A stretch of 62,421 nucleotides of DNA from Gemmatimonadales bacterium (lineage in GTDB: Bacteria > Gemmatimonadota > Gemmatimonadetes > Palauibacterales > Palauibacteraceae): the NCBI GenBank assembly GCA_037385645.1, contig JARRMU010000016.1:1-62421 (forward strand), in the 5' to 3' direction. The number at the start of each line of letters is the position of its first letter. The first letter of the stretch is position 1. Position numbers and translations under genes: made by a program. Below, in pieces: positions 33,322 to 38,382 of this stretch. A model generated the notes under the pieces. It was not told the origin of the DNA. It saw nothing but the letters and a program-made list of their open reading frames with translations, and searched no databases.

Positions 33322-34566
33322 CTAGCCGTTGCCCTGCTTCTCGCCTCCCTGCCCGGAGTGGTCGTGCCCGCCCGCCTTCTCCGGCTCGGGATGGTGGCCG
33401 GACGGCATCTCCATATCGCTCATGTCCTCCGCGCTGCCCTCGCCTTCGCCGGCCGCCGGCATCTCCATGTCGCTCATGCCCTCCATCGGCCGGGCGCTGT
33501 GACCGCCGCCGTGCCCGCCGTGTCCGTGGCCCTCCATTCGGTCGGGCGCGGTGATCGTGTTGTTCAGGTCCAGGATATAGGCCGGGTCGTTCGGGTCGCA
33601 CGGAGGCCACTCACCGTCGCCCATGATGGCGACGACCCCGCCGATCGCACCCATGCCCATGTCGGGCGCCGGAACGTCCAGCGGGTTCTCGTACTCCACG
33701 ACGATCCGGTACTCGCGGTCCTTGGAGATCTCCTTCCCGAGCTGGAGGAGGAACTTCGAGCTCGGCACGCCCACCATCCGTCCGGCCTCGTTATACTCGG
33801 GCTCAGCCCGCCACAGCACCTCGCCGGTCATGGCGTCCTCGAGACGAAGCTCGGTCGCGTAGTCGTGCACGTGGCAGCCGATCCCCAGAATCCGGGCATC
33901 CACGGCGGGACGGGCCGTGTAGGAGCGCTCCGTATGCCCGGGCGGCACCTCGAAGTCCTTCACGCCATCGAAGCCCATCACGTCCAGGTAGAACGGATAG
34001 ACCGCCATGGGCTTGATCAGCCCCTCATCGGCCTGGCTGTACAAGAGCTTGAAGTGCAGGTAGACGTCGGCGAAGTCCTCGCCCAGCGGATTGCCGAACA
34101 TCGTGGCGATCAGCATCCGGCCGCCTTCGTCTAGCGGAAAGCCGATCACGCCGGGGATGGACTCACGCTGGTTCTCCCGGCCCGCGGCGAGGACGCGGCG
34201 GGAGATCGGTGTGAACAGCTCTCGGTTGTCCGGATCGATCAGGTTGACATGGTGAAGCAGGTCAGCCGGCAGAGCCTCACCGTCGCCGTTTCGGATCTCC
34301 CACTCGAAGCCGTGCATGTAGGCGTCGAAGGGAAGCTTGACCCACTGCATCGGCAGGCGGATGTGCGGGCCATCCGCCGGAAGATCGACGGGTCCGATCA
34401 CGAACTCGAGCGCCTCGCCCGGATGGTCGATGAGCGTGAGGCTATCGTCGCTGTCGACAGTCACGGCCGGTGCTTCCGGACCGCAACTCGCCATGCTCGC
34501 CGCCAGGCCGAGGGTCAGTGCCGCGGCCGACATGTTCTTCAAACAACTTCGTCGCAAAGATCGCAT
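33322..34566 (-). CDS. Lipoprotein with PHM/DBH-like (copper type II monooxygenase-like) His/Met signature and a Met/His-rich C-terminal tail
   Basis: ATG 34566 gives MRSLRRSCLKNMSAAALTLGLAASMASC (signal plus lipobox-like Cys). HH at residues 105-106, H171, HxH at 232/234, and M303/M305, with local contexts resembling PHM. The tail is GHGHGGHGGGH...MSDMEMP...MSDMEMPSGHH. The upstream part of track ORF 33322..34899 is Arg/Pro-rich and was rejected. Confidence 0.55.
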   Translation of the reverse strand: MRSLRRSCLKNMSAAALTLGLAASMASCGPEAPAVTVDSDDSLTLIDHPGEALEFVIGPVDLPADGPHIRLPMQWVKLPFDAYMHGFEWEIRNGDGEALPADLLHHVNLIDPDNRELFTPISRRVLAAGRENQRESIPGVIGFPLDEGGRMLIATMFGNPLGEDFADVYLHFKLLYSQADEGLIKPMAVYPFYLDVMGFDGVKDFEVPPGHTERSYTARPAVDARILGIGCHVHDYATELRLEDAMTGEVLWRAEPEYNEAGRMVGVPSSKFLLQLGKEISKDREYRIVVEYENPLDVPAPDMGMGAIGGVVAIMGDGEWPPCDPNDPAYILDLNNTITAPDRMEGHGHGGHGGGHSARPMEGMSDMEMPAAGEGEGSAEDMSDMEMPSGHHPEPEKAGGHDHSGQGGEKQGNG

Positions 34567-34780
34567 CGAAAAAAGCTCGGTCTCGGGTTTATCTGGCTCG
34601 GCTCTCAAGCTCGCTGCTGCCGGCGCTCGGTTGTCAGGAGCGCGGTGCGGCCTGCTACGGTGGCGTCCGAGGTGCGGTCGGTCACGTCGCCTGGAGACAC
34701 CTGGACGGCCGCCCACGTTCCCGGTGGACACCGGCCCCACGGCCGGCTCGAGTTGGTGCAGATGGCGCGGAGCGCGACCG

Positions 34781-35026
34781 TCAGGGAGGCGGTACGTCGA
34801 AGTATACGTAATTCTTGGCGATGAAGGCGCTCCACTCCTCGGGGACCTCATCGTCCGGGAAGATCGCCTCCACCGGACACTCCGGCACACAGGCGCCACA
34901 GTCGATGCACTCCTCGGGGTGGATGTAGAACATGTCCTCCCCCTCGTAGATGCAGTCTACTGGGCATACGTCGACGCACGACGCATCCTTGGTGTCGATG
35001 CAGGGCTGCGTAATGATATAGGTCAT
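34781..35026 (-). CDS. fdxA: 7Fe ([3Fe-4S][4Fe-4S]) ferredoxin, FdxA type
   Basis: [29 protein letters not shown]....[27 protein letters not shown] lies 5 nt upstream of ATG 35026. Confidence 0.9.
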
Positions 35027-35301
35027 GGGGCTCCGAGTGGCGTCGTCGGTGTGCCTTGCCGGCGAAGCCCGGTTCCGCCGGCGCCGGTGAGAATATCGCG
35101 GACCTGGCACTTCTGCAACCGAGTTGAATAGTCGGCATTCCGGTGGACCTCCACCCCCATCCGGGGTATGTTTGCACGTCGCATTCGGGCTGGTTCGCGC
35201 CGGAACGCATCGCGCGCGATGGCGGCCGTTTACGAAGACACCGACGCCTCGTCTCCCCGCGAACTGTGCTGGGTGACGGGGCTTCGCCGTCGAAGGAACG
35301 G

Positions 35302-36243
35302 ATGAAACATCTCACGGTTCTGACAGCTTCAGACGCCCTCGACGCCTCGAACGGGACCGAGCACTGGCCCGCGCGGAAGCCTGACTGGCTGAAGGTCCGC
35401 GCGCCCGGTGGCTCGAACTACCGTCGCCTCAAGACGCTCATGCGCGGCGGAGAGCTGCACTCGGTGTGCGAGGAAGCGCATTGCCCGAACATCGGGGAGT
35501 GCTGGGAGGCCGGCACGGCCACCTTCCTCATCATGGGCGACATCTGCACCCGGAACTGCCCCTACTGCGCCATCGCCCACGGCCGGCCGGAGGAGCTGGA
35601 CGAGGACGAGCCGCGGCGGGTCGCCGAGGCCGTGGCGAGATTACAGCTGAACCACGTCGTCGTCACGTCGGTGGACCGCGATGACCTTCCGGACGGCGGA
35701 GCCTGGATCTTCGCCGAGGTCATTCGTGAGATCAGGGAGCGACTGCCCGCGTGCTCCATCGAGGTCCTCACGCCCGATTTTCGCGGGGACCGACGGGCGA
35801 TCCGAAGGGTGGTCGAAGCCGGTCCGGAGATCTTCAACCATAACATGGAAACCGTCCGGCGGATGCACCGGACAGCGAGGCCGGGCGGGCGTTACGATCG
35901 CTCGCTTCGGGTTCTCTCCGACGCCAGGAAGATGGATGACGAGGTGCTCATAAAGACCGGCATCATGCTCGGCCTCGGCGAAGCTCCCGATGACGTGCTC
36001 GAGTTCATGCACGATGCCGTGAACGCGGGCGTGCAGATCCTCACACTGGGGCAGTACCTGCGGCCCTCGTCGGAACATCTGCCGATTCATCGGTACGTGG
36101 CGCCCGAGGAGTTCGTCGAGTGGAAGCGGATCGGCGAGGAGCTCGGGCTGCTCCACGTGGAAAGCGGCGCTCTCGTTCGAAGCAGCTACCACGCGCGAGA
36201 GCAGGTCGAGGAGCTCAAAGCTCGCGCGGCGGCGTTGAGCTGA
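35302..36243 (+). CDS. lipA: Lipoyl synthase
   Basis: [12 protein letters not shown] and CTRNCPYC cluster motifs. AAGGA RBS before ATG 35302; the track start 35143 was rejected. Confidence 0.92.
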
Positions 36244-36307
36244 GTAGGCGCCGCTTCTGACCGTTCCCGGAGAACGCTCCCTAACGAGCCGGACCGAACA
36301 AGCGACC

Positions 36308-37405
36308 ATGGCAACGAAAGAGACCAGCGCGCACGGCAACGCGCCCCCGCAGGACACGCGATCGGACCGCGACGCGGCGGATCGGTCCGACCTCCTGGGC
36401 CTCGAGGATGGCGAGCTCAGGGAGCTGCTGCGGCTGATGATCCTGGCCAGGCGCTTCGAGGAGAAGACCGCCGAATCCTACCAGCTCGGCAAGATCGGTG
36501 GGTTCCTGCATCTCTACGTCGGCCAGGAGGCCGTGGCCGCGGGCGCCATCACGGCGTTGCGCGAGGACGACTACGTGATCTCGGCGTACCGCGAGCACGC
36601 GCACGCTCTCGTGCGCGGCGTCTCCGCCCGCGCCGTGATGGCAGAGCTGTACGGGCGGGCGACCGGGTGCTCGAAGGGGATGGGTGGCTCCATGCACCTC
36701 TTCGACCGCTCCGTAAACTTCTTGGGTGGGCACGCGATCGTCGGCTCGCACCTGCCGATCGCGGCCGGGGTTGGCTACGCGATCCGGTACCGGGGTGGCG
36801 ATCAGGTCTGCCTATGCTTCTTCGGGGACGCGGCGGTGAACATCGGCGCCTTCCACGAGGCCCTGAACATGGCCGCGAAGTGGGAGTTGCCGGTCGTATG
36901 GGTCATCGAAAACAACGCCTACGGAATGGGCACGGGGATCCGGCGATCGGCGGCGATCACGCAGCTGGTAGACCGGGCCTGCGCCTACGAGGGAATGGCC
37001 TCCGCGCAGGTCGACGGGATGGATGTCCTGCAGATGCGGGCCACCATCGACGAAGCCGTCCGGATCGCCCGGGAGGAGAAGCGACCGTCCCTCATCGAGG
37101 CGATCACCTACCGCTTCATGGGACACTCGATGGCCGATCCCTCCCACGGCACCTACCGGGCCCGCGAGGAAGTAGAGGAATGGAGGGAGGACGACCCGAT
37201 CCTCACGCTTGGCGACCGGTTGATCGAAGCGGGCCTGATGACCGCCGAGGAGTACGAGGCGATGGACCGCGCCGTGATCGAGGAGGTCGAGGAGTCGGCC
37301 GATTTCGCGGACGCCAGCCCCCGGCCGGACGAGAGCCACATCTACGACCTCGTCTACTCGGACGAGTATCCCCACGGCCTGGACCGGAGGGACAGATGGC
37401 GGTGA
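36308..37405 (+). CDS. pdhA: Pyruvate dehydrogenase E1 component, alpha subunit
   Basis: GFLHLYVGQEA, and the TPP motif FFGDAAVNIGAFHEALNMAA...VIENNAYGMGT. Confidence 0.9.
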   Translation: MATKETSAHGNAPPQDTRSDRDAADRSDLLGLEDGELRELLRLMILARRFEEKTAESYQLGKIGGFLHLYVGQEAVAAGAITALREDDYVISAYREHAHALVRGVSARAVMAELYGRATGCSKGMGGSMHLFDRSVNFLGGHAIVGSHLPIAAGVGYAIRYRGGDQVCLCFFGDAAVNIGAFHEALNMAAKWELPVVWVIENNAYGMGTGIRRSAAITQLVDRACAYEGMASAQVDGMDVLQMRATIDEAVRIAREEKRPSLIEAITYRFMGHSMADPSHGTYRAREEVEEWREDDPILTLGDRLIEAGLMTAEEYEAMDRAVIEEVEESADFADASPRPDESHIYDLVYSDEYPHGLDRRDRWR

Positions 37406-38382
37406 TCACCTACCGCGAGGCCCTCAATGAAGCGCTTCGTGAAGAGATGGCGCGCGACGAGAGCGTCTTCCTGATCGGAGAGGAGGTCGCAGAGTACGAC
37501 GGAGCCTACAAGGTGTCCAAGAACCTGCTGGAGGAGTTCGGGGAGTGGCGCGTGAGGGACGCGCCGATCGCCGAGCTGGGGTTCGCCGGCCTCGGGGTGG
37601 GCGCGGCGATGGTCGGGTTGAGGCCGATCGTCGAGTTCATGACCTGGAACTTCGCGCTGCTCGCCATCGACCAGGTCATCAACAGCGCCGCCAAGCTCTA
37701 CCAGATGTCGGGCGGCCAATACAACGTCCCGATCGTCTTCCGGGGCCCCGGAGGCGCGGCGCTCATGCTGGCCGCGCAGCACTCGCAGGCGCCCGAGCCG
37801 TGGCTCGCGTACGTGCCGGGCCTGAAGGTCTGCTCGCCCGCCACGCCGTATGATGCAAAAGGGCTCCTGAAGTCGGCCGTCAGGGACAACGATCCGGTCG
37901 TCTTCATCGAGGGCGAGCTCCTCTACAACGTGAAGGGCGAGGTGCCCGAAGACGAAGAAGTCCTGGTGCCGATTGGCTCGGCGGACGTGAAGCGGCAGGG
38001 GGACGACGTCACGATTGTCACCTATGGGAAGATGGTGCACGAGGCGTGGAGGGCCGCCGAGACGCTGGCGACCGAAGATGGGGTCGAGGCCGAGATCCTC
38101 GATCTGCGGACGGTGCGACCCATCGACGTCCCATCGGTTCTCGCCTCGGTCCAGAAGACGAACCGTGCGGTGATCGTCGAAGAGGGATGGCCGGTCGCCA
38201 ACATCGGGGCTCAACTCGTGGACGACATCCAGCGTGACGCGTTCGACGCCCTCGATGCCCCCGTAGCCCGGGTGACAGGGCTGGACGTCCCCATGCCCTA
38301 TGCCCGCAACCTCGAGAAACTGGTGCTCCCGTCCGCCGAGAACATTCGCGCTGCCGCCCGGGATGTCTGCTATGTGTCGTAA
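37396..38382 (+). CDS. pdhB: Pyruvate dehydrogenase E1 component, beta subunit
   Basis: MAVITYREALNEALREEMARDESVFLIGEEVAEYDGAYKVS and following sequence. The start overlaps the pdhA end by 10 nt. Confidence 0.9.
   Translation: MAVITYREALNEALREEMARDESVFLIGEEVAEYDGAYKVSKNLLEEFGEWRVRDAPIAELGFAGLGVGAAMVGLRPIVEFMTWNFALLAIDQVINSAAKLYQMSGGQYNVPIVFRGPGGAALMLAAQHSQAPEPWLAYVPGLKVCSPATPYDAKGLLKSAVRDNDPVVFIEGELLYNVKGEVPEDEEVLVPIGSADVKRQGDDVTIVTYGKMVHEAWRAAETLATEDGVEAEILDLRTVRPIDVPSVLASVQKTNRAVIVEEGWPVANIGAQLVDDIQRDAFDALDAPVARVTGLDVPMPYARNLEKLVLPSAENIRAAARDVCYVS

What the first reader, a model, noticed from the sequence alone, without database searches (positions are those of the whole stretch)
33322..34566. 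Bacterial lipoprotein with the copper-site signature and spacing of PHM/dopamine-beta-monooxygenase
Numbered from ATG 34566, the protein has HH at 105-106 (LLHHVNLI), H171 (VYLHFKL), HxH at 232/234 (IGCHVHDYA) and Met at 303/305 (PDMGMGAIGG). In peptidylglycine alpha-hydroxylating monooxygenase the ligands are H107/H108/H172 (CuH) and H242/H244/M314 (CuM), so the spacing is nearly the same. Local contexts also match: LP.D before the HH, P.GvGF before the third His, and vPPG about 20 residues before the HxH. This family is essentially eukaryotic and uses ascorbate. A lipobox-anchored, presumably periplasmic, bacterial version has no defined substrate or reductant. A 7Fe ferredoxin gene lies 214 bp upstream on the same strand and an EamA exporter downstream. 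This is the most novel-looking gene in the window.
Basis: partly seen in the sequence, partly recalled or inferred. Interest (0 to 1): 0.7.

Follow-up and report, generated by a model that had tools for sequence, protein, structure and literature searches.

The report
Exported PHM-like copper protein, Gemmatimonadota
This bacterial lipoprotein gene belongs to a large unannotated Gemmatimonadota family whose predicted fold and five near-invariant His/Met residues resemble the animal copper enzymes PHM and dopamine beta-hydroxylase, but it fails their sequence models and lacks one of their six copper ligands.

Summary
The ORF is real: 33322-34566, minus strand, 414 aa, start ATG 34566.

Supported:
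- The AlphaFold2 model is confident (pLDDT >90 over residues 40-345). Its 31 best PDB matches are all PHM or DBH (Foldseek E 4.5e-10 to 3e-7, both domains aligned).
- Across 107 diverse relatives (22-45% identity), H105, H106, H232, H234 and M305 are 96-99% conserved.
- Most members look exported. His/Met-rich low-complexity segments recur at different positions, which argues for copper.

Not supported:
- Pfam PF01082/PF03712 and NCBIfam give no hit. Profile-profile comparison is not significant.
- H171 and M303 are not conserved. H171 is not the equivalent of PHM H172; that position holds M156.
- PHM's conserved cysteines and R240 are absent.
- The upstream ferredoxin is syntenic but lacks a signal peptide. 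The EamA gene is not a conserved neighbour.

Best reading: an exported PHM-like copper protein with an intact His2Met (CuM-type) site and an altered second site. It is probably an oxidoreductase of unknown substrate and reductant. This is a new variant of a known kind. Copper binding, site geometry and activity are untested.

The parts
33322..34566 (-). CDS of the PHM-like exported protein (414 aa plus stop)
   Evidence: ORF and translation. 244 homologues found, up to 97% identical. Start supported by the homologue alignment and a conserved upstream context.
34483..34566 (-). Signal peptide with lipobox (residues 1-28, LAASMAS|C28)
   Evidence: Sequence pattern. Modelled as helix 4-26. Lipobox present in 24 of 95 clade members; a hydrophobic N-terminus is present in about 90% of the family.
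33970..34464 (-). N-terminal beta-sandwich domain (residues ~35-199), counterpart of the PHM CuH domain
   Evidence: AF2 model with pLDDT >90. Foldseek alignments to PHM/DBH span ~310 columns.
34249..34254 (-). H105-H106, near-invariant His pair, aligned to PHM H107/H108
   Evidence: 96-98% conserved in 107 representatives. Register from hhalign. Lies at the start of strand 104-115.
34090..34101 (-). M156-F-G158-N159: M156 sits at the position of PHM H172 / DBH H333; G158 replaces the family's common His
   Evidence: hhalign register. M156 is 99% conserved in the clade and 66% in the broad family; position 158 is His in 56% of the broad family but never in the clade.
34363..34365 (-). H68, clade-invariant His in a loop that carries Met/His-rich inserts in other members; candidate extra ligand
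   Evidence: 99% conserved in the clade, 65% in the broad family. Inserts map to query positions ~55-70. A role as ligand is inferred only.
34054..34056 (-).
   Evidence: Arg in 58% and His in 6% of 107 representatives. Does not align with H172: falls on a non-ligand His or a Gly.
33532..33969 (-). C-terminal beta-sandwich domain plus helix (residues 200-345), counterpart of the PHM CuM domain
   Evidence: AF2 models. In the domain-only Foldseek search PHM ranks first and takes 26 of the top 42 places, but E is only 8e-3 to 9e-2.
33865..33873 (-). H232-V-H234, near-invariant HxH aligned to PHM H242/H244
   Evidence: 99% and 96% conserved. Same register in two hhalign runs.
33652..33654 (-). 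M305, near-invariant Met immediately before the last long strand; proposed counterpart of PHM M314
   Evidence: 97% conserved. Precedes strand 306-314. The hhalign alignment stops 6 residues short of PHM M314, so the equivalence is inferred.
33325..33531 (-). Disordered His/Met/Gly/Glu-rich C-terminal tail (residues 346-414; HGHGGHGGGH, two MSDMEMP repeats, HDH)
   Evidence: pLDDT <50. Composition. A tail with at least 6 His+Met is present in 87 of 95 clade members.
34781..35026 (-). Upstream ferredoxin gene (81 aa; CxxCxxCxxxCP motif plus three further Cys): conserved neighbour, probably not a functional partner
   Evidence: Pfam Fer4. Directly upstream on the same strand in 55-58 of 71 informative loci. 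No signal peptide in the sequence.

Best explanation
The gene encodes a lipid-anchored, exported two-domain beta-sandwich protein. It is a remote, bacterial (Gemmatimonadota-centred) structural relative of the PHM/DBH copper monooxygenases.

It most likely binds copper through H232, H234 and M305 in the C-terminal domain. This is a CuM-type His2Met site, which in PHM binds O2. It probably binds a second copper, or shares the first, through H105/H106 of the N-terminal domain. M156 and/or H68 would replace the third histidine of the classical CuH site.

The disordered His/Met-rich tail probably captures Cu(I)/Cu(II) in the periplasm. The protein is then a copper-dependent oxidoreductase, most likely a monooxygenase or oxidase. 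It would act on an envelope or extracellular substrate different from PHM's and would use a periplasmic, non-ascorbate reductant.

Shown here: the ORF, the family, the conservation pattern, the export signals, and the predicted fold with its best PDB matches. Inferred: copper binding, the number and geometry of the sites, catalysis, the substrate and the electron donor.
For: Fold:
- AF2 model pLDDT 80.8 overall and >90 for residues 40-345; pTM 0.74.
- Foldseek against PDB: ranks 1-31 are all PHM or DBH, E 4.5e-10 to 3e-7, 297-345 aligned columns. The next hits are double-jelly-roll capsids (1.8e-5) and PNGase F (9e-4).

Ligand pattern:
- H105, H106, H232, H234 and M305 are invariant in 95 close relatives.
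- They are 96-99% conserved in 107 representatives at 22-45% identity, where only 15 columns reach 90%.

Register:
- hhalign places HH on H107/H108 and HxH on H242/H244. P138/G142/F143 fall on PHM's invariant P/G/F. N159-P160 falls on the N-P of DBH's HYHNP.

Copper link:
- A His/Met-rich tail is present in 87 of 95 clade members.
- His/Met-rich segments occur in 21 of 107 representatives against 1 of 272 neighbouring ORFs. They sit at different positions (N-terminus or loop before H68, or C-terminal tail), which implies repeated independent gain.

Export:
- A signal-like N-terminus is present in about 90% of members, and this protein has a lipobox.

Family size:
- 1216 representative clusters at E<=1e-3. 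Nearly all named members are Gemmatimonadota.

PHM ligand facts come from PMC6123673.
Against: - No Pfam or NCBIfam hit for this protein or 107 relatives. No PDB sequence hit.
- hhalign against the PHM/DBH profile gives E 0.72. Per-domain P values (0.04 and 0.3) are no better than the cross-domain controls (0.02 and 0.11).
- Whole-chain TM-scores are modest (0.40-0.53 normalised to the target; rmsd 6.6-10 A).
- The C-domain alone matches PHM only at E 8e-3 with TM ~0.5, similar to generic jelly rolls.
- The third CuH histidine is missing. Its mutation to Ala inactivates PHM (PMC6123673). Here the position holds Met, and 18 of 107 relatives have neither M156 nor H158.
- No conserved Cys, so none of PHM's disulfides. 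PHM R240 corresponds to Gly.
- No conserved operon partner that could be a reductant or substrate.
- No coordinates were available, so the site geometry is unverified.
Confidence: 0.55

Rival explanations
1. PHM-like fold, but with one merged or closely coupled copper site rather than two sites 11 A apart. H105/H106 from the N-domain and H232/H234/M305 from the C-domain would converge on a single copper or a short-distance pair, as in the closed conformers of H108A-PHM-citrate and DBH chain A. The chemistry could then differ from PHM, for example an oxidase or a mononuclear monooxygenase.
For: - The third CuH ligand is not conserved, while the other five residues are.
- The best whole-chain TM-scores are to 6ala_A (0.53, rmsd 6.6), 5wja_D (0.52) and 6ala_C (0.51). 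DBH chain A scores above chain B (0.42 against 0.38, normalised to the query).
- 6ALA and DBH chain A are the closed, single-copper conformers according to PMC6123673.
Against: - The TM differences are small.
- AF2 does not model metals.
- No coordinates could be inspected.
- M156 (99% in the clade) and H68 could complete a separate second site.
Confidence: 0.2
2. A non-catalytic periplasmic copper-binding protein that buffers, sequesters or delivers copper and merely reuses a PHM-like scaffold.
For: - His/Met-rich low-complexity segments are typical of periplasmic Cu(I) handling proteins (established knowledge of CopA/PcoA, PcoC, CusF and CueO Met-rich motifs). They recur in the family.
- There is no reductant or substrate gene nearby.
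- One relative is fused to a TonB C-terminal domain.
Against: - The gene is never seen next to cop/cus/pco genes in the loci examined.
- A rigid, near-invariant His2Met triad on a conserved 300-residue two-domain scaffold, plus further invariant polar residues (R115, E131, R287, Y292, N294), looks more like an active site than a buffer.
- The tails are absent from most of the broad family.
Confidence: 0.17
3. The resemblance to PHM is only generic double-jelly-roll similarity. The conserved His/Met residues serve another metal (Zn, Ni, Fe) or a non-redox function, for example a hydrolase or glycan-binding protein like PNGase F.
For: - Sequence profiles show no significant relationship.
- The domain-level Foldseek E-values are similar to those for capsids, GOLD domains and toxin domains.
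- PNGase F and GH172 are also among the hits.
Against: - PHM/DBH beat all other folds by about 5 orders of magnitude in the whole-chain search and fill ranks 1-31.
- HH in domain 1 together with HxH...M in domain 2 is the PHM ligand pattern, in the same order and at similar spacing.
- Met-rich segments point to Cu(I) rather than Zn or Ni (established knowledge).
Confidence: 0.08

Closest known systems
PHM / dopamine beta-monooxygenase / tyramine beta-monooxygenase (Pfam PF01082 Cu2_monooxygen + PF03712 Cu2_monoox_C; PDB 1PHM, 4ZEL)
   Same: - Two consecutive beta-sandwich domains; best structural match in PDB.
- An HH pair in domain 1 and HxH...M in domain 2, in the same order and with similar spacing (126/71 against 134/70 residues).
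- Shared small motifs: LP..G.GF, NP after the third-ligand strand, PPG before HxH, and G three residues after HxH.
- Both are exported or luminal proteins.
   Different: - No significant sequence or profile similarity.
- The third CuH His is replaced by Met.
- No conserved cysteines or disulfides. PHM R240 is not conserved, and its other substrate-binding residues N316/Y318 lie beyond the alignment.
- M305 follows the GG motif directly, whereas PHM M314 lies 6 residues further on.
- Bacterial, lipoprotein, with a His/Met-rich tail.
- No DOMON or PAL domain.
- Reductant cannot be assumed to be ascorbate.
SURNod19 / MtN19 (Pfam PF07712), plant, fungal and bacterial proteins of unknown function
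   Same: - Three of 107 family members give sub-threshold hits (best E 0.0095, 15.2 bits). They fall on the strand-turn-LLHH motif (query residues 81-107; profile positions 34-62 of 377).
- In common bean, Nod19 is a validated target of the copper-responsive microRNA miR398, which fits a copper protein (PMC3882225).
   Different: - Below the Pfam gathering score of 25 bits.
- Only a 27-residue stretch matches.
- The window protein itself gives no hit.
- I could not obtain Nod19 sequences to test the relationship by profile or structure.
PNGase F (PDB 1PGS) and other double-jelly-roll proteins
   Same: Same general two-jelly-roll architecture. Present among the Foldseek hits (E 9e-4).
   Different: Scores about 6 orders of magnitude weaker than PHM. 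It is a hydrolase with no His/His/Met metal sites (established knowledge).
Periplasmic copper-handling proteins with Met/His-rich motifs (CopC/PcoC, CusF, CueO/PcoA Met-rich regions)
   Same: Exported, with Met/His-rich low-complexity segments likely to bind Cu(I)/Cu(II).
   Different: Different folds (cupredoxin, OB or Ig-like; established knowledge). No Pfam match to them. Not located in cop/cus/pco operons.

Membership tests
Cu2_monooxygen family (PHM/DBH/TBM; PF01082 + PF03712) | Significant match to the Pfam N- and C-domain HMMs | tested here: not met
   0 families at E<=10 for the window protein. None of 107 relatives hits PF01082 or PF03712 at E<=1. Genuine members carry both domains in the precomputed annotation.
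Cu2_monooxygen family (PHM/DBH/TBM; PF01082 + PF03712) | Profile-profile sequence homology to PHM/DBH | tested here: not met
   hhalign of A3 against A6 gives E 0.72. Per-domain P values are 0.04 and 0.3; cross-domain controls are 0.02 and 0.11.
Cu2_monooxygen family (PHM/DBH/TBM; PF01082 + PF03712) | Two-domain beta-sandwich fold of the PHM catalytic core | tested here: met
   Foldseek ranks 1-31 are all PHM/DBH, E down to 4.5e-10, ~310 aligned columns, TM up to 0.53. The domain-only test is weaker: PHM ranks first but E is 8e-3 and TM ~0.5.
Cu2_monooxygen family (PHM/DBH/TBM; PF01082 + PF03712) | CuM ligands His-x-His plus Met in the C-domain | tested here: met
   H232 99%, H234 96% and M305 97% conserved. 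HxH aligns to H242/H244. The M305/M314 equivalence is inferred from its position before the last strand.
Cu2_monooxygen family (PHM/DBH/TBM; PF01082 + PF03712) | CuH ligands: the HH pair plus a third, invariant His (H172 in PHM, H333 in DBH) | tested here: not met
   The HH pair is present and conserved. The H172 position holds M156, position 158 is Gly, and H171 is unconserved and misaligned. The third His is invariant in the PHM/DBH alignment, and H172A inactivates PHM (PMC6123673).
Cu2_monooxygen family (PHM/DBH/TBM; PF01082 + PF03712) | Conserved disulfide-forming cysteines | tested here: not met
   The PHM/DBH alignment has invariant or near-invariant C70, C183, C249 and C271. The bacterial family has no Cys column at 60% or more.
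Cu2_monooxygen family (PHM/DBH/TBM; PF01082 + PF03712) | Two copper sites about 11 A apart across a solvent cleft | not testable with these tools
   Structure prediction returns no coordinates. The only hint is a slightly better TM to the closed conformers.
Cu2_monooxygen family (PHM/DBH/TBM; PF01082 + PF03712) | Copper- and reductant-dependent hydroxylation activity | not testable with these tools
   Requires biochemistry.
SURNod19 (PF07712) | Match above the Pfam gathering score (25 bits) | tested here: not met
   Best hit is 15.2 bits (P0156, residues 86-112). Three of 107 members hit; the window protein gives none.
Bacterial lipoproteins | Signal peptide ending in a lipobox with an invariant Cys | tested here: met
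   MRSLRRSCLKNMSAAALTLGLAASMAS|C28. The lipobox is conserved in the closest relatives. This is a pattern match only; lipidation is untested.

The most novel reading that the evidence does not exclude
This is the first prokaryotic lineage of PHM/DBH-type copper oxygenases. It would be an exported family spread across Gemmatimonadota, with a conserved His2Met O2-activating site and a re-engineered His2+Met/His electron-transfer (or merged) site. It would run on a non-ascorbate periplasmic reductant, act on a new class of substrate, and possibly be the bacterial sister of the enigmatic plant and fungal Nod19/MtN19 proteins.
Probability: 0.3. Interest if true: 0.8.

Novelty: new variant of a known kind. 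Interest (0 to 1): 0.6.

Why it matters
All named PHM, DBH and TBM relatives retrieved here were animal proteins. They are textbook non-coupled binuclear copper monooxygenases whose mechanism, including open versus closed conformers and the electron path between the two coppers, is still debated.

A large bacterial family with the same fold and the same CuM triad, but a naturally altered second site, would offer three things:
- an evolutionary outgroup;
- an easily expressed model for testing which features of the CuH site are essential;
- probably new copper-oxygen chemistry in the bacterial envelope.

It would also assign a first functional hypothesis to a protein conserved across much of a poorly studied phylum. 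It might give a lead on Nod19/MtN19 as well.

Tried and rejected
- Pfam and NCBIfam scans of the protein and of 107 relatives found nothing relevant.
- PDB sequence searches with the single protein and with two profiles found nothing. The one hit (7on6) is a repeat artefact.
- hhalign against the PHM single sequence, against a 43-sequence PHM/DBH profile, and per domain was not significant. Cross-domain controls were as good. Sequence-level homology is therefore rejected as evidence; only the register was used.
- H171 as the third CuH ligand is rejected.
- Ferredoxin as the reductant is rejected as unlikely: it has no signal peptide (so presumably cytoplasmic) and is syntenic with lipA-PDH.
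- EamA as a partner is rejected: present in 15 of 84 loci.
- No regulatory RNA or operator was found in the 214-bp spacer. There is no Rfam hit, no promoter or terminator pattern, and the spacer is not conserved apart from ~25 nt before the ATG.
- There is no paralogue in the window.
- The search for a conserved operon partner in the divergent branch found a stand-alone gene between DUF1207 and NlpC/P60.
- The literature gave no report of bacterial PHM-like proteins.
- 'MtN19' hits in two Pseudomonas papers were a false lead: MTN1907 is a cloning vector.
- I tried to show classical PF01082 members in bacteria. The P0488 neighbourhood looks eukaryotic, so no claim is made.
- Model coordinates are not exposed to the script environment, so copper-site distances could not be measured.
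- The remembered PHM and DBH sequences served only as bait. They were replaced by the authentic PDB sequences 4e4z_A and 4zel_A.
Full report
**Observation.** The minus-strand ORF 33322-34566 translates to 414 residues. A longer GTG-initiated ORF of 525 aa would overlap the upstream ferredoxin gene. ATG 34566 is the likely start for two reasons. Homologues begin at the same place. The ~25 nt before it are the only conserved part of the 214-bp spacer. The N-terminus (MRSLRRSCLKNMSAAALTLGLAASMAS|C) is a signal peptide with a lipobox, and the closest relatives keep a lipobox. The window has 66% G+C and holds no paralogue.

**Database status.** Pfam-A (including PF01082 and PF03712), NCBIfam and PDB sequence searches return nothing for the protein. 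A search of 5.8 billion proteins found 244 relatives. The closest (97% identity) is a 'hypothetical protein' of a Gemmatimonadales MAG, and none carries a Pfam domain. An exhaustive profile search of 1.84 billion cluster representatives found 1216 at E<=1e-3 and 535 at E<=1e-10. In species-representative genomes, 152 relatives were confirmed. Nearly all are Gemmatimonadota (Palauibacter, Longimicrobiales, 'Benthicola'), with a few Bacteroidota or Ignavibacteriales bins. Several genomes carry two copies. A profile made from the most divergent members again retrieved only unnamed Gemmatimonadales proteins. NCBIfam does not cover any of 107 representatives.

**Conservation.**
- In 95 close relatives (>=45% identity), H105, H106, H232, H234 and M305 are invariant.
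- In 107 representatives at 22-45% identity, only 15 columns reach 90% conservation. Those five residues are among them, at 96-99%.
- H171 is Arg in 58% and His in 6%. M303 is Gly in 75%.
- A motif M156-x-H158-N159-P is common in the broad family: M 66%, H 56%, N 85%.
- In the window's own clade, M156 is 99% conserved, position 158 is always Ala or Gly, and H68 is 99% conserved.

**Structure.** AlphaFold2 with the 95-sequence alignment gives a confident model. The pLDDT is above 90 over residues 40-345 and pTM is 0.74. The signal peptide is helical and residues 348-411 are disordered.
- Foldseek against PDB returns PHM or DBH at ranks 1-31 (E 4.5e-10 to 3e-7, probability 1.00, 297-345 aligned columns). 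Next come PRD1-type double-jelly-roll capsids (1.8e-5), GH172, and PNGase F (9e-4).
- TM-scores are modest (0.40-0.53 normalised to the target). The highest are for 6ala_A, 5wja_D and 6ala_C. DBH chain A scores above chain B.
- 6ALA and DBH chain A are the 'closed', single-copper conformers (PMC6123673).
- A separate model of the C-domain alone (pLDDT 86) again ranks PHM first, and PHM takes 26 of the top 42 places. However, E is only 8e-3 to 9e-2 and TM is ~0.5 over 116 of 151 residues, comparable to unrelated jelly rolls.
- The specific signal therefore comes from the collinear two-domain architecture, not from either domain alone.

**Residue register.** I recovered authentic PHM and DBH core sequences from PDB, using remembered sequences only as bait. 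I gathered a diverse PHM/DBH/TBM set in which every member carries PF01082 and/or PF03712 and aligned 43 of them.
- hhalign between this profile and the bacterial family is not significant (E 0.72). Per-domain runs are no better than cross-domain controls. Sequence-level homology is not demonstrated.
- The alignment that hhalign does find is nevertheless collinear with the ligands:
  - H105/H106 fall on H107/H108.
  - P138, G142 and F143 fall on the invariant P, G and F of 'LPkGvGF'.
  - M156 falls on PHM H172 (DBH H333).
  - N159-P160 falls on the N-P of DBH's 'HYHNP'.
  - H232/H234 fall on H242/H244.
- H171 does not align with H172. It falls on a non-ligand His in one run and a Gly in the other.
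- M305 follows the GG motif directly, whereas PHM M314 lies six residues further on. Both sit at the start of the last long strand, so their equivalence is inferred.
- The bacterial family has no conserved cysteines (PHM/DBH has several), and PHM R240 corresponds to Gly.

**Copper link independent of PHM.** The C-terminal 69 residues are disordered and rich in His, Met, Gly and Glu (HGHGGHGGGH, two MSDMEMP repeats, HDH). Such a tail, with at least 6 His+Met, is present in 87 of 95 clade members but in few distant relatives. Distant relatives instead often carry His/Met-rich inserts at the mature N-terminus or in the loop just before H68. Overall, 21 of 107 representatives have a 30-residue window with at least 8 His+Met, against 1 of 272 neighbouring ORFs. 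Repeated, positionally independent gain of such segments fits a copper-handling family, by analogy with the Met-rich Cu(I) motifs of periplasmic copper proteins (established knowledge).

**Genomic context.**
- Neighbours in the window are an EamA transporter (downstream), a Fer4 ferredoxin (upstream), lipoyl synthase, pyruvate dehydrogenase E1, an isoaspartyl peptidase and a TPR protein.
- Across 84 loci, the ferredoxin is directly upstream on the same strand in 55-58 of 71 informative cases. lipA (56 loci) and E1-alpha (50) are equally conserved on the other strand. This is block synteny.
- The ferredoxin has no signal peptide, so it is presumably cytoplasmic, while the PHM-like protein is exported. 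Direct electron transfer between them is implausible.
- Second paralogues and the divergent branch lack the ferredoxin. In the divergent branch the gene stands alone between DUF1207 and NlpC/P60 genes.
- EamA is downstream in only 15 loci.
- No Rfam element, promoter or terminator pattern was found in the spacer.

**A side lead.** Three of 107 relatives give sub-threshold hits to Pfam SURNod19/MtN19 (best 15.2 bits against a cut-off of 25). The matched stretch is the strand-turn-LLHH motif. Nod19 has no known function. In common bean it is a validated target of the copper microRNA miR398 (PMC3882225). This is suggestive only.

**Interpretation.**
- *Most likely (about 0.55).* This is an exported PHM-like copper protein with an intact CuM-type His2Met site and a modified second site (HH plus Met or His). 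It would act as an oxidoreductase on an unknown substrate with a non-ascorbate reductant.
- *Variant reading (about 0.2).* The five invariant residues form one merged or tightly coupled site, as in the closed PHM/DBH conformers. This would explain why the third CuH ligand is dispensable.
- *Other rivals.* A non-catalytic copper buffer or chaperone (about 0.17), and a generic jelly-roll protein with unrelated function (about 0.08).

It is not a member of PF01082/PF03712 by any sequence criterion, and it fails the third-His, disulfide and R240 features. It resembles that family in fold and in five of six ligands. I rate it a new variant of a known kind, with interest 0.6. The decisive tests are inspection of coordinates or metal-aware modelling, copper stoichiometry and spectroscopy of the recombinant protein, and activity assays.

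Noticed in passing
P0015 (677 aa; metagenomic relative): Tandem duplication of the whole two-domain unit in one polypeptide. Both halves keep HH, HxH and the GMG methionine.
   Followed up: partly
P0260 (426 aa; representative): Family core fused to a C-terminal TonB_C domain (Pfam 8e-21; NCBIfam tonB_Cterm 2.3e-14). This hints at a link to outer-membrane transport or envelope anchoring.
   Followed up: partly
P0156 residues 86-112 (= window protein residues 81-107; window 34246-34326): Sub-threshold match to Pfam SURNod19/MtN19 (15.2 bits, profile positions 34-62 of 377) covering the GF..D..G..LP..LLHH motif. Three of 107 relatives hit this family. Nod19 is a miR398 (copper microRNA) target of unknown function.
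   Followed up: partly
Family representatives P0144, P0196, P0212, P0217, P0235, P0246 and others: His/Met-rich low-complexity inserts, such as GNMAAGNMAAGNMAAG or MSSMAGMPGMPEMSGVM, at the mature N-terminus or in the loop before H68, instead of the C-terminal tail seen in the window's clade.
   Followed up: yes
L002 5695-7893 and L003 1201-3399: In one lineage a hybrid histidine kinase/response regulator gene (HisKA, HATPase_c, Response_reg; 732 aa) is inserted between the ferredoxin and the PHM-like gene.
   Followed up: no
window 34567-34592 (minus strand, just upstream of ATG 34566): About 25 nt (ACCCGnGAACGAGCnT..TTCnATG) are conserved among close relatives, while the rest of the 214-bp spacer is not. 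There is a T6 run and no obvious Shine-Dalgarno sequence directly before the ATG.
   Followed up: partly
L008/L011, L027/L032, L019/L047, L058/L063: Several Gemmatimonadota MAGs carry two paralogues. L011 and L019 have the ferredoxin-lipA-PDH context (L008 lacks enough upstream sequence to tell), and the second copies L032, L047 and L063 lack it.
   Followed up: partly
window 35143-38382 (+) and 34781-35026 (-): A conserved block of lipoyl synthase and pyruvate dehydrogenase E1 alpha/beta lies divergent from the Fer4 ferredoxin gene. The block is syntenic across Gemmatimonadota at about 50% protein identity.
   Followed up: partly
L087/L088 (contigs carrying P0488): A 284-aa protein with genuine PF01082+PF03712 domains sits on metagenomic contigs up to 308 kb. 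The fragmented gene calls, DUF716 and a split amino-acid permease look eukaryotic rather than bacterial.
   Followed up: no
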